This document shows positions 19,289 through 34,215 of a stretch of 64,000 bases of DNA, piece after piece. The notes beneath the pieces are model-generated. The model saw only the letters and a list, made by a program, of their open reading frames with translations, made no database searches and had not been told where the DNA came from. A program made the position numbers and the translations under genes. Origin of the DNA: Octopus vulgaris (taxonomy: Eukaryota). Location: positions 744,001 to 808,000 of the forward strand of contig CATOCA020000001.1 in NCBI GenBank assembly GCA_951406725.2. Reading direction: 5' to 3'. How positions within the stretch are numbered: position 1 is the stretch's first letter; each line of letters begins with the position of its first letter.

Positions 19289-19491
19289 TCACTCTGTCTG
19301 AGGTAGACATTCGAGTACGTCCAAGCACTCAGCTTCCAGAAGAGCTTCTCTGAGTGTTGCGAATGTGAATTCTTCTGGAGCACAAGTTGCCGACCATTTG
19401 CGGAGCATCTGGAAGCTCTGTTCTGTACTGTTATTTAAATTTTCAAGCTTGATCTTGTTCAAGTGGAAACTGCCAATTCCTAAATTCGCAC
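19289..19491 (-). CDS. Terminal exon, remainder of death domain ([17 protein letters not shown]...[10 protein letters not shown]...[21 protein letters not shown])
   Basis: gttttgcag|GT acceptor; LG....L..I......EQ..QML.KW and L.EAL death-domain motifs; TGA at 19291-19289. Confidence 0.9.
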
Positions 19492-31353: not shown

Positions 31354-34215
31354 GGGAGGGAGGGAGGGAGAAGTATGGTGTTTTATGTGGAGTAAAAGTA
31401 AGAGAGAGGATTTGAACATGTGATGTTGTGGTAATGGAGAATGAGATGAAGTGAAAGATCTAGTCAGGGACAGCAACAAGAACAACAATAACAACAAGAA
31501 CAACAATAACAAGAATTATGGCGGTGATTACTGAATAAAGTAGATGGTAGTGTCATTACAGTAAGAGAGAGAGAGAGAGAAGAAGAAGGATGACCCATGA
31601 TGCTGACTCACCTTAGAACTGCCTGATGGAGTAGTGTGTTACCAGATTTATCTCTTTTATAGTAATCAATGCTCGGATGCTGCAGTAAGAGATTAACTGT
31701 ATCCGCGTGTCCCTTGTCCCAGGCCTGGTGGAGTGGTGTGTACCCATTGATAGCCTCAGTATTTACATCAATAGCAGGGTGCTTCAGTAAATGCTTAACT
31801 GTCTCTATGTGTCCCTTGACACAGGCCCGGTGTAGTGGTGTGCACTGATTGCTATCCTTAGCATTTACATCAATATCAGAGTGCTTCAGTAGATGTTTAA
31901 CTGTCTCCGGGTGTGTCTTGTCACAGGCCCGGTGTAGTGGTGTGTCCTGATTGCTATCCTTAGCATTTACATCAATATCAGAGTGCTGCAGTAAAAGATT
32001 AACTGTTTCTGTGTGTCCATACCAACAGGCCCGGTGAAGGGGTGTGTACTGATCGCTATTCTTAGCATTTACATCAATATCAGAGTGCTGCAGTAGATGT
32101 TTAACTGTCTCCGTGTGTCCCTCGACACAGGCCATGTATAGTGGTGTGTACTGATCGCTATCCTTAGCATTTACATCAATATCAGAGTGCTGCAGTAGAT
32201 GTTTAACTGTCCCTGCGTGTCCCTTGTCACAGGCCCGGTGTAGTGGTGTGTCCTGATTGCTATCCTTAGCATTTACATCAATATCAGAGTGCTGCAGTAG
32301 ATGCTTAACTGTCTCCGTGTCTCCCGTGACACAGGCCCGGTGTAGTGGTGTGCACTGATCGCTATCCATAGCATTTACATCAATATCAGAGTGCTGCAGT
32401 AGATGCTTAACTGTCTCCGTGTGTCCCTCGACACAGGCCCGGTGTAGTGGTGTGCACTGATTGCTATCCTTAGCATTTACATCAATATCAGAGTGCTTGC
32501 AGTAGATGCTTAACTGTCTCCGTGTGTCCCTCGACACAGGCCCGGTGTAGTGGTGTGCACTGATCGCTATCCTTAGCATTTACATCAATATCAGAGTGCT
32601 GCAGTAGATGTTTAACTGTCTCCGTGTGTCCCGTGAGACAGGCCACGTATAGTGGTGTGTACTGATCGCTATCCTTAGCATTTACATCAATATCAGAGTG
32701 CTGCAGTAGATGTTTAACTTTGTCCGTGTCTCCCGTGACACAGGCCCGGTGTAGTGGTGTGTACTGATTGCTATCCTTAGCATTTACATCAATATCAGAG
32801 TGCTGCAGTAGATGTTTAATTGTCTCCGTGTCTCCCGTGACACAGACCCGGTGTAGTGGTGTGTACTGATCTCTATCCTTAGCATTTACATCAATAGCAG
32901 AGTGCTGCAGTAGATGTTTAATTGTCTCCGTGTGTCCCTCGACACAGGCCCGGTGTAGTGGTGTGCACTGATTGCTATCCTTAGCATTTACATCAATATC
33001 AGAATGCTTCAGTAGATGTTTAACTGTCTCCGTGTGTCCCGTGAGACAGGCCACGTATAGTGGTGTGTACTGATCGCTATCCTTAGCATTTACATCAATA
33101 TCAGAGTGCTTCAGTAGATGTTTAACTGTCTCCGTGTGTCCCTCGACACAGTTCCGGTGTAGTGGTGTGCACTGATCGCTATCCTTAGCATTTACATCAA
33201 TATCAGAGTGCTGCAGTAGATGCTTAACTGTCTCCGTGTGTCCCTCGACACAGGCCCGGTGTAGTGGTGTGCACTGATTGCTATCCTTAGCATTTACATC
33301 AATATCAGAGTGCTGCAGTAGATGTTTAACTGTCTCCGTGTCTCCCGTGACACAGGCCCGGTGTAGTGGTGTGCACTGATTGCTATCCTTAGCATTTACA
33401 TCAATATCAGAGTGCTGCAGTAGATGCTTAACTGTCTCTGTGTGTCCCGTGACACAGGCCCGGTGTAGTGGTGTGTACTGTTTGCTATCCTTAGCATTTA
33501 CATCAATATCAGACTGCTGCAGTAGATGTTTAACTGTCTCCGTGTGTCCCGTGACACAGGCCCGGTGTAGTGGTGTGTACTGATCGCTATCCTTAGCATT
33601 TACATCAATAGCAGAGTGCTGCAGTAGATGTTTAATTGTCTCCGTGTCTCCCGTGACACAGGCCCGGTGTAGTGGTGTGCACTGATTGCTATCCTTAGCA
33701 TTTACATCAATATCAGAGTGCTGCAGTAGATGCTTAACTGTCTCTGTGTGTCCCGTGACACAGGCCCGGTGTAGTGGTGTGTACTGTTTGCTATCCTTAG
33801 CATTTACATCAATAGCAGAGTGCTGCAGTAGATGTTTAACTGTCTCCGTGTGTCCCTCGACACAGTTCCGGTGTAGTGGTGTGCACTGATCGCTATCCTT
33901 AGCATTTACATCAATATCAGAGTGCTGCAGTAGATGCTTAACTGTCTCCGTGTGTCCCTCGACACAGGTCCGGTGTAGTGGTGTGCACTGATTGCTATCC
34001 TTAGCATTTACATCAATAGCAGAGTGCTTCAGTAGATGTTTAACTGTCTCTGCGTGTCCCTTGTCACATGCCCGGTGTAGGGGTGTGTACTGATCTTTAT
34101 TCAGAGCATTTACATCAATGCCAGGCTGCTGCAACAGATGTTCAGCAATTTCTGTTTGTCCGAGAGCACAGGCCAGATGTAGTAGTGTGTCACCATCTCT
34201 ATTTTGTTGATTTAT
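19289..34215 (-). CDS. Multi-exon gene: ankyrin-repeat array + C3HC4 RING + death domain protein (C-terminal half resembles MIB-type Ank-RING E3 ligases); 5' end not located; one +1 frameshift near 32498
   Basis: Seven exons with canonical AG/GT boundaries and matching intron phases (2,0,0,2,1,1). Summed length 2603+37+210+179+143+72+203=3447 nt (1148 aa + stop) after removing one base. Domains continue correctly across the splice junctions. Confidence 0.88.
19958..20258 (-). mobile_element. Full-length tRNA-derived SINE in the last intron
   Basis: Same family as 16372-16672; box B GGTTCGAATC. Confidence 0.8.
21559..21630 (-). CDS. Death domain exon 1 ([25 protein letters not shown])
   Basis: tttatttcag|GG acceptor; GTT G|GTGAGT donor; 72 nt, phase 1-1. 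The L..VA..LG..W..VG motif matches death-domain helices 1-2. Confidence 0.88.
22429..22885. repeat. Intronic minisatellite, about 57-bp unit x about 8
   Basis: Unit GATTATATATAACCTGACAAAGGGATATCTGACCATCATTATAATGATATCTATATA. Confidence 0.85.
24422..24564 (-). CDS. RING finger exon, C3HC4 (CLLC...[11 protein letters not shown]...CPKC)
   Basis: caacag|A TGT acceptor; TTC G|GTAAGA donor; all eight Zn ligands present with MIB/IAP-type spacing. Confidence 0.92.
25286..25464 (-). CDS. Exon with terminal ankyrin/linker ([59 protein letters not shown])
   Basis: tttgtag|TAC acceptor; CCA TT|GTAAGT donor; 179 nt open frame. VACFLA.NGA...N.....PLDL resembles the last ankyrin of MIB-type ligases. Confidence 0.88.
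26780..26989 (-). CDS. Exon with two divergent ankyrin repeats ([20 protein letters not shown]...GNNCLHLAV...VLDK)
   Basis: Pyrimidine tract + caaag|GAT acceptor; AAG|GTAAGT donor; 210 nt, phase 0-0. Confidence 0.9.
28410..29795 (+). mobile_element. Decayed R4/Dong-clade LINE 3' part (RT end, CCHC knuckle, restriction-like endonuclease), antisense in an intron
   Basis: [11 protein letters not shown] motif; [13 protein letters not shown]...HIISSC; RYDVVAR; VVEISCP...K..EK..Y; with stops and frameshifts. Confidence 0.8.
30711..30747 (-). CDS. 37-nt exon completing an ankyrin repeat ([13 protein letters not shown])
   Basis: tttcag|A CAA AGC...TCC CAG|GTTAGT; phase 2 in, phase 0 out; completes [11 protein letters not shown] with ankyrin helix 2. 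Confidence 0.85.
31612..34215 (-). CDS. Giant ankyrin exon (about 26 ankyrin repeats; 24 tandem 102-bp/34-aa units at 31671-34119)
   Basis: Acceptor ttcttttcag|ATA AAT CAA and donor CTA AG|GTGAGT. Consensus [34 protein letters not shown]. ORFs 32488..34284 and 31608..32579 are joined by a 1-nt insertion. Confidence 0.95.

What the first reader, a model, noticed from the sequence alone, without database searches (positions are those of the whole stretch)
19289..34215. Ankyrin array-RING-death domain protein: candidate variable immune sensor / E3 ligase
Seen: phase-compatible exons join about 28 ankyrin repeats to an intact C3HC4 RING and a complete death domain. Established: MIB1/2 have Ank+RING but no death domain; ankyrins and DAPK1 have Ank+death domain but no RING; RING ligases and death domains drive TNF/Toll/Imd and apoptotic signalling. 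Inference: a lineage-specific chimera that couples a long variable recognition surface to ubiquitination and death-domain assembly, functionally like NLRs but without a nucleotide-binding domain. Automated pipelines would probably label it MIB2-like or split it at the frameshift.
Basis: partly seen in the sequence, partly recalled or inferred. Interest (0 to 1): 0.85.

Follow-up and report, generated by a model that had tools for sequence, protein, structure and literature searches.

The report
Octopus variable ankyrin death-domain gene family
This spliced octopus gene is an unusually long member of a family of at least 80 genes built from the Mind bomb 2 ubiquitin ligase, in which a death domain replaced the ligase's working finger and the ankyrin binding surface varies, so the family likely acts as a set of variable intracellular sensors rather than as ordinary ligases.

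Summary
The architecture is confirmed and the interpretation revised. The seven exons are real and phase-compatible. An eighth, start-codon exon lies at 35032-34949. Together they encode about 28 ankyrin repeats, a C3HC4 RING and a death domain (DD). A one-base frameshift in the array looks like an assembly artefact but is unresolved.

This is not a lone chimera. At least 81 loci in this Octopus genome share the layout, and all named relatives are Octopus. Intron phases and a tree derive the family from MIB2: the N-terminal substrate module was lost, RING1 kept, and RING2 replaced by DD exons. Published mutants show RING2 is the catalytic one, so 'E3 ligase' is doubtful.

The long array is exceptional: most paralogs have about 1.5 repeats in that exon. 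Variation concentrates on the ankyrin binding face, and the DD diverges fast between neighbours. Best reading: a variable sensor/adaptor signalling through DD (untested). No paper found; this scan noted the family on other DNA.

The parts
34949..35032 (-).
   Evidence: same Met position in gene models of O. sinensis and O. bimaculoides
34558..34561 (-). Junction where about 9.2 kb holding two further ankyrin exons (phases 0>2, 2>0) is missing relative to the C8 copy; the loss keeps the frame
   Evidence: MIB2 and a third neighbour keep these exons
31612..34215 (-). Exon A: about 26 ankyrin repeats, 24 of them a 102-nt tandem array with variable hairpin and inner-helix residues
32484..32586 (-). 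103-nt repeat unit with one extra base near 32497-32499 (frameshift as assembled); the site reads as a blend of the two codons found in the other units
   Evidence: 17 units one codon, 5 the other, 1 the blend
30711..30747 (-). Exon B, 37-nt microexon (127 nt in MIB2)
26780..26989 (-). Exon C, two ankyrin repeats
25286..25464 (-). Exon D, MIB-type degenerate last ankyrin repeats and linker
24422..24564 (-). Exon E, C3HC4 RING equivalent to MIB2 RING1
21559..21630 (-). Exon F, first helices of the death domain (phase 1>1)
19289..19491 (-). Exon G, rest of the death domain and stop; a transcript contig runs on to 19006
17432..51623 (.). One arm of a roughly 34-kb inverted duplication; the other arm (G000:C31:807228-844776) holds the closest paralog
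   Evidence: 87-96% identity by block, lowest across the array

Best explanation
The gene is a spliced member of a large Octopus family derived from Mind bomb 2, in which two death-domain exons took the place of the RING2 exon, and it likely works as a variable intracellular receptor/adaptor rather than as a stand-alone ligase. Shown: the exon chain, the MIB2 origin, loss of the N-terminal substrate module and of RING2, 80 or more loci, variation focused on the ankyrin binding face, and fast death-domain divergence between neighbours. Inferred: (1) the ankyrin solenoid binds a variable target, probably a foreign or altered-self protein, and its specificity is reshuffled by unequal crossing-over and conversion among the 102-nt units; (2) binding clusters the C-terminal death domains, which would recruit FADD/RIPK1/MyD88-type partners to trigger NF-kB signalling or cell death; (3) RING1 is likely a structural spacer or weak E2 dock, with ubiquitination, if any, supplied in trans or regained in some branches. 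This copy is predicted to encode about 1176 residues if the frameshift is an assembly error.
For: MIB2 origin: six of the seven introns match MIB2 (G000:C26) in position and phase, and the RING1 exon ends in phase 1 in both genes. The family plus two RING2-bearing relatives forms a 100* clade beside MIB2. An ANK-RING1-RING2 protein without the N-terminal module exists as a likely intermediate (P0034). Family size: of 117 death-domain exon hits, 85 have the D exon upstream on the same strand within 50 kb (81 distinct loci; controls 6 and 4), 55 show D>RING>DD in order, and 79 of 117 lie on two contigs. Binding-face variation within this array: pN 0.240 vs pS 0.026 at six positions, against 0.062 vs 0.076 elsewhere (permutation p=1e-4); the neighbour gives 0.376/0.113 vs 0.118/0.152. 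No unit is shared with the neighbour, and the nearest unit is in the same gene for 20 of 22 units, although introns differ by only 3%. Among 33 short-exon paralogs, residue heterozygosity is 0.48-0.53 on the face vs 0.15-0.18 elsewhere (p=0.002 and 9e-5). Death-domain exons differ from the neighbour at 23 of 198 nonsynonymous sites vs 3.0% in introns (p=1e-7), while exons C, D and RING are 98-99% identical. Closest solved death domains are Fas (3.5e-6) and RIPK1 (4e-5). Only 2 NACHT matches in this genome (a lower bound). Catalysis needs the last RING in human MIB2 and MIB1.
Against: No ligand, partner, tissue or challenge data. Across paralogs, local pN/pS at the binding-face codons is only 0.9-1.3 and not significant (binomial p 0.17-0.41), because synonymous differences are raised there too. 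Purifying selection is weak elsewhere: pN/pS 0.7-0.9 on the exon A framework, and on exon D 0.51 over all pairs but 1.03 among close pairs. Within-array counts come from non-independent pairs with few synonymous sites. In exon G alone the N-over-S excess is not significant (p=0.09), and conversion from a third copy could explain it. This copy and its neighbour are frameshifted as assembled (1 and 2 indels). The RING keeps all zinc ligands, and 15 of 30 family RING strings have the Pro and 10 of 30 the Arg typical of active RINGs (motif recalled), so ligase activity is not excluded. The fold search ranks the Ankyrin-G death domain first, so the partner class is open.
Confidence: 0.5

Rival explanations
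1. One reading: an active E3 ligase-sensor. RING1 regained E2 activation, death-domain oligomerisation replaced the lost coiled-coil dimer, and bound targets or DD partners are ubiquitinated, as MIB2 does to cFLIP.
For: Eight zinc ligands intact and RING 98% identical among the three close copies. Pro after the seventh ligand in 15 of 30 family RING strings, absent from octopus MIB2 RING1; Arg after the last ligand in 10 of 30. Best solved matches are XIAP and cIAP RINGs. MIB1 activity is boosted by dimerisation.
Against: The RING is RING1, not the catalytic one. Human MIB2 with mutated RING1 still ubiquitylates cFLIP, and MIB1 ANK-RING1-2 does not self-ubiquitinate. This copy has Gln, not Arg, after the last ligand.
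Confidence: 0.2
2. Largely neutral birth-and-death expansion in duplication-prone small chromosomes. Variation follows structural tolerance and gene conversion, and this copy is a decaying pseudogene or a truncated ankyrin-only product.
For: Frameshifts in this copy and its neighbour, loss of two exons, an orphan exon-1 copy in the window, some paralogs with stops, and pN/pS near 1 in several comparisons. Surface positions vary most in any ankyrin family (established knowledge).
Against: Correctly spliced contigs; one matches this locus rather than the neighbour (0 differences in exon C vs 4 for the neighbour). The C8 copy keeps an open frame over about 3.2 kb. Only 3 of 117 death-domain exon hits show a stop. 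The family is present in three Octopus species. Within-array pN far exceeds pS on the binding face.
Confidence: 0.13
3. Decoys or dominant-negative tuners: the proteins titrate pathogen effectors aimed at death-domain signalling, or compete with MIB2 and DD adaptors, damping signalling instead of starting it.
For: The catalytic RING was lost, and the death domain itself diverges quickly between neighbours, which fits bait or decoy evolution better than a fixed downstream partner. MIB1 RING1-2 may be mildly autoinhibitory.
Against: A decoy does not need a separate variable ankyrin surface. No binding data.
Confidence: 0.1
4. Non-immune diversity: adaptors for neural wiring, development or self-recognition, in the manner of other octopus expansions.
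For: MIB proteins act in Notch signalling, and cephalopods have large neural gene expansions (PMC13218726 section 12).
Against: The module that binds Notch ligands is the part that was lost. Concerted evolution with binding-face diversification resembles non-self receptors (PMC4986451).
Confidence: 0.07

Closest known systems
Mind bomb 2 (MIB2) and Mind bomb 1
   Same: Ankyrin region, MIB-type last repeats, RING1, and intron positions and phases. Databases label family members MIB2-like or MIB1-like.
   Different: No MZM or REP substrate module, no RING2 or its coiled coil, a C-terminal death domain, 80 or more copies, and one ankyrin exon expanded up to about 26-31 repeats.
Fungal NLRs with highly conserved ankyrin repeats (PMC4986451, passages read)
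   Same: Internally conserved ankyrin arrays, concerted evolution, variable residues on hairpins and inner helices, multigene family.
   Different: No NACHT or NB-ARC switch; the effector domain is C-terminal; origin from a ubiquitin ligase; repeat-number polymorphism between individuals not tested here.
ANKDD1A/B, ankyrins and DAPK1 (ankyrin plus death domain)
   Same: Ankyrin repeats and a death domain in one chain (Atlas neighbours; Ankyrin-G DD is the top fold match).
   Different: They have no RING. This gene lacks ZU5/UPA, kinase and ROC domains and has MIB2's exon structure.
Oyster IAPs with DD and RING domains (PMC8917759, passages read)
   Same: Expanded molluscan family combining a death domain with a RING of the same Pfam class.
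   Different: BIR rather than ankyrin recognition domains, independent origin; that paper counts only 10-11 IAP genes in Octopus.
Arthropod MIB-like ANK-RING clusters and plant ANK-RING ligases (Atlas)
   Same: Ankyrin plus RING in proteins of about 400-450 residues.
   Different: No death domain among the Pfam families listed (at most three shown); kinship not tested.

Membership tests
Mind bomb (MIB2) | N-terminal MZM module (Mib-HERC2/ZZ) | tested here: not met
   PF06701 gives 10 matches genome-wide, none on C31 or C29; family models start with Met at the ankyrin region; spacing between the upstream AG and the ATG differs between copies
Mind bomb (MIB2) | REP (SH3_15) repeats | tested here: not met
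   Absent from all death-domain-bearing models scanned or listed; not searched separately in the genome
Mind bomb (MIB2) | MIB-type ankyrin region and RING1 with shared introns | tested here: met
Mind bomb (MIB2) | Terminal catalytic RING with coiled coil | tested here: not met
   Replaced by exons F and G
RING E3 ligase | Eight zinc ligands (C3HC4) | tested here: met
RING E3 ligase | E2-activating motif (Pro after ligand 7, linchpin after ligand 8; motif recalled) | tested here: inconclusive
   Pro present, Gln at the linchpin position; family mixed
RING E3 ligase | Ubiquitin transfer activity | not testable with these tools
   Needs an in vitro assay
NLR/STAND receptor | NACHT or NB-ARC domain | tested here: not met
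   No such hit in the seven exons scanned; the spliced chain leaves no room
NLR/STAND receptor | Variable repeat sensor with concerted evolution | tested here: met
   formal positive selection across paralogs not shown
NLR/STAND receptor | Death-fold effector domain | tested here: met
   (C-terminal here)
NLR/STAND receptor | Ligand-induced oligomerisation and signalling | not testable with these tools
   No complex prediction was run
Ankyrin/ANKDD1/DAPK1 | Ankyrin plus DD without RING, with ZU5/UPA or kinase-ROC where applicable | tested here: not met
   RING present, none of those domains found, MIB2 exon structure

The most novel reading that the evidence does not exclude
Octopuses, which appear to have very few NACHT-type NLRs, rebuilt an intracellular non-self receptor repertoire from the Notch ligase MIB2: a natural DARPin-like library of 80 or more genes whose ankyrin faces are reshuffled by recombination and which signal through a swapped-in, fast-evolving death domain with no nucleotide switch. 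Some branches may have re-armed the normally silent RING1, and this locus is a 26-repeat extreme.
Probability: 0.35. Interest if true: 0.85.

Novelty: new variant of a known kind. Interest (0 to 1): 0.62.

Why it matters
How cephalopods recognise intracellular pathogens without adaptive immunity is largely open. This family is one of the larger octopus expansions, yet it is scattered in databases under misleading names (MIB2-like, ankyrin-3-like, secG-like, proteasome subunit 10). It offers a concrete, testable candidate repertoire and a clean case of exon shuffling in which an enzyme's catalytic domain is replaced by a signalling domain. It also offers a natural library of ankyrin binders and a test of whether a silent RING can be re-activated in evolution.

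Tried and rejected
Single-copy chimera: rejected.

Seven exons as the whole gene: rejected; the ATG exon lies upstream. The alternative first exon used by database model P0004 does not give a phase-0 donor for exon A.

Long array as a family trait: rejected. Of 60 loci that I chose from the 81 paired ones (20 kb upstream each), exon A was found in 49: 37 up to 60 aa, 7 of 61-150, 5 of 151-400, none longer. Eleven were missed by the pattern or lay outside the stretch.

Death-domain donor: six DD hits without the family exons were examined. Three were family-like fragments, two belong to a C26 cluster with low-complexity exons and one (C2) stood alone; the donor is unresolved.

Other taxa: 49 of 49 DD-profile hits and all 20 representatives looked up were Octopus. 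Sensitivity is limited and no squid or cuttlefish genome was searched, so this is weak evidence of absence.

Atlas search of RING+DD gave no usable hit. Foldseek gave no match at E<=0.001 for the three-domain model; the top rows were the Ankyrin-G DD, MIB1 ANK and IAP RINGs.

Run listing: no holder is on record as RNA, and tissue labels were not available.

Selection was assessed by pairwise counts only; no codon-model test was run.

Literature: eight full-text searches found no paper describing the family. Subscription papers and most supplements were not seen, and orthogroup tables in cephalopod genome supplements could list it.
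Full report
OBSERVATION. The seven minus-strand exons exist with GT-AG ends and compatible phases. Pfam finds ankyrin repeats in exons A and C, zf-C3HC4_3 in E (2e-9) and Death in G (7e-6). An AlphaFold model of the O. sinensis relative P0001, which covers exons C-G, has mean pLDDT 91.5 and a helical C-terminal domain. Exon A holds 24.2 copies of a 102-nt unit. It starts at an acceptor without Met. 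Comparison with neighbours located the missing first exon at 35032-34949. Read with X at the single 103-nt unit, the protein is 1176 residues; as assembled it stops at codon 604.

THE FRAMESHIFT. The extra base falls at a site where 17 units carry one codon and 5 another, and the odd unit reads as a blend of both. That pattern is what consensus polishing in near-identical repeats tends to produce (inference). The neighbour has two indels in its array, while the C8 copy is open over about 3.2 kb. I put the chance that the frameshift is real at about 30%. It was not tested with reads.

SPLICING. Four public runs were laid on each of two stretches. A>B appears in 4 of 4 runs, B>C in 3 of 4 and C>D in 3 of 4, all at the predicted GT-AG ends; single contigs span A-B-C-D in X17 and X8. 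One X2 contig runs from D directly into E. F>G appears in X1 and X17 but not in the DNA-sized run X15, which covers all 30 bins. E>F was not among the printed joints. It is inferred from a 395-nt X17 contig (278 nt of G, 76 of F, 41 left over, with the same depth of 3.3 seen on the RING exon's 3' end) and from a 696-nt X2 contig whose last 155 nt fit F plus 83 nt of G. Model P0001 also joins C through G. The X17 contig has 0 differences from this locus in exon C, where the neighbour has 4. The runs are not on record as RNA and come from other individuals or species.

FAMILY. In the own genome (Octopus; O. vulgaris models match the neighbour at 98-100% in exons D, E and G) the DD, RING and D exons give 117, 71 and 114 hits, all lower bounds. 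Of the 117 DD hits, 85 have a D exon upstream on the same strand within 50 kb (81 distinct), against 6 and 4 in the two control orientations. Fifty-five show all three in order, and 79 lie on contigs C29 and C31. All 49 hits of a DD profile and all 20 representatives looked up are from O. vulgaris, O. sinensis or O. bimaculoides, under assorted names. The gene sits in one arm of a 34-kb inverted duplication. It and its neighbour lack two ankyrin exons that the C8 copy retains, an in-frame loss.

ORIGIN. The canonical MIB2 gene at G000:C26:2.51-2.57 Mb has two Mib-HERC2 hits followed by the same exon series with the same phases. Its equivalent of exon A is about 150 nt and contains the longer repeat type that was amplified here. 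After the RING1 exon, which ends in phase 1 in both genes, MIB2 has a terminal RING2 exon; this gene has the two DD exons. The RING matches RING1 of an O. bimaculoides MIB2 (43%, 1e-9) and not RING2 (E=9.5). In a quick tree of exons C-D-RING (32 rows, rooted on MIB2; two rows mis-cut and long), 27 DD-bearing proteins group with two RING2-bearing ones at 100*. One of these, P0034, is ANK-RING1-RING2 without the N-terminal module, a plausible intermediate. The other, P0023, nests among DD members, so a single DD gain is not ruled out but not shown.

IS IT A LIGASE? In human MIB2, mutating RING1 left cFLIP ubiquitylation intact whereas mutating RING2 abolished it (PMC7815719, passages). [quoted passage not shown] The family therefore kept the dispensable RING and lost the catalytic one, along with the substrate module. 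Against this, all zinc ligands persist, and among 30 distinct family RING strings (two mis-cut by my pattern) 15 have Pro after ligand 7 and 10 have Arg after ligand 8, whereas octopus MIB2 RING1 has neither. This copy has Pro and Gln. Ligase activity is open, about 25% for this copy.

VARIABILITY. Within this array, 20 of the 22 in-frame units are distinct. At six positions equivalent to those randomised in DARPins (positions recalled), pN is 0.240 and pS 0.026, against 0.062 and 0.076 elsewhere (permutation p=1e-4); the neighbour shows the same pattern. The two arrays share no unit, and the nearest unit is in the same gene for 20 of 22, which indicates concerted evolution since a recent duplication (introns differ by 3.0%). 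The long array is exceptional: 37 of 49 paralogs have a 51-52 residue exon A and none exceeds 400 residues, against 24-31 repeat hits in this trio. Among 33 short-exon paralogs the same face is hypervariable, with 32 distinct residue strings in 33 genes. However, local pN/pS there is 0.9-1.3 and not significant, and constraint elsewhere is weak, so positive selection across paralogs is not established. The DD exons diverge faster than introns between the two neighbours (23 of 198 nonsynonymous sites, p=1e-7), while C, D and RING are 98-99% identical; conversion from another copy could contribute.

MECHANISM AND COMPARISON. The anatomy most resembles fungal NLRs with conserved, diversifying ankyrin arrays (PMC4986451, passages), but there is no nucleotide-binding domain, so it is not an NLR. 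It also fails MIB membership on two defining modules. The DD is closest in sequence to Fas and RIPK1 among solved structures. The genome shows only 2 NACHT matches from 25 candidates (lower bound). FADD is reported in molluscs, with a cephalopod in its tree (PMC11463336, passages). I commit to a variable receptor/adaptor that signals through DD clustering (0.5), ahead of active ligase (0.2), neutral expansion (0.13), decoy (0.1) and a non-immune role (0.07). The descriptive part (MIB2-derived, RING2 replaced by DD, multigene) I hold at about 0.95.

NOVELTY. Eight searches found no paper on the family. The cuttlefish genome paper (section 12 and passages) does not mention ankyrin or MIB families. 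I also read passages of PMC11874512, PMC8917759 and PMC6522055, none describing it. Earlier notes of this scan reached a similar reading on other loci; my reading was recorded before I saw them. Specific to this locus are the 26-repeat exon, the in-frame loss of two exons, the concerted evolution after an inverted duplication, and the fast DD divergence.

Noticed in passing
window 15804-15887 (+): Orphan copy of the family's first coding exon, close to that of the third neighbouring paralog, with its downstream intron but no further family exons found in the window.
   Followed up: partly
G000:C8:118.79-118.83 Mb (L036-L040, L063): Close paralog with 98% identical RING but a different array built from higher-order 3-4-repeat blocks, and a much more divergent death domain, suggesting that arrays and DD exons are exchanged independently.
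   Followed up: partly
P0013, P0014, P0017; G000:C30:15.68-15.69 Mb (L200-L201): Many paralogs carry small repeated exons between RING and DD with VQT-type motifs that recall LC8/dynein light chain docking sites (motif recalled); this copy has none.
   Followed up: no
G000:C26:12.81-12.93 Mb (L185-L190, L203): Cluster of five related death-domain exons preceded by Ser/Thr/Pro/Asp-rich exons and no ankyrin hits; a possible sister or donor family.
   Followed up: partly
G000:C20:45.05-45.06 Mb (L054-L055); P0034: Gene matching the ANK-RING1-RING2 protein P0034, which lacks the MIB N-terminal module and has an expanded exon A: a likely intermediate between MIB2 and the family.
   Followed up: partly
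G000:C1:216.93-216.96 Mb: Eleven closely spaced copies of the D exon, mostly about 3.5 kb apart and most with stops, without a death domain downstream.
   Followed up: no
window 22417-22885: 57-bp minisatellite (8.3 copies) in the RING-DD intron, shared with the neighbouring duplicate.
   Followed up: no
P0002 (O. sinensis model): Database model fusing this family's last DD exon to what looks like a transposase fragment and named SCAN-domain protein; probably a mis-annotation.
   Followed up: no
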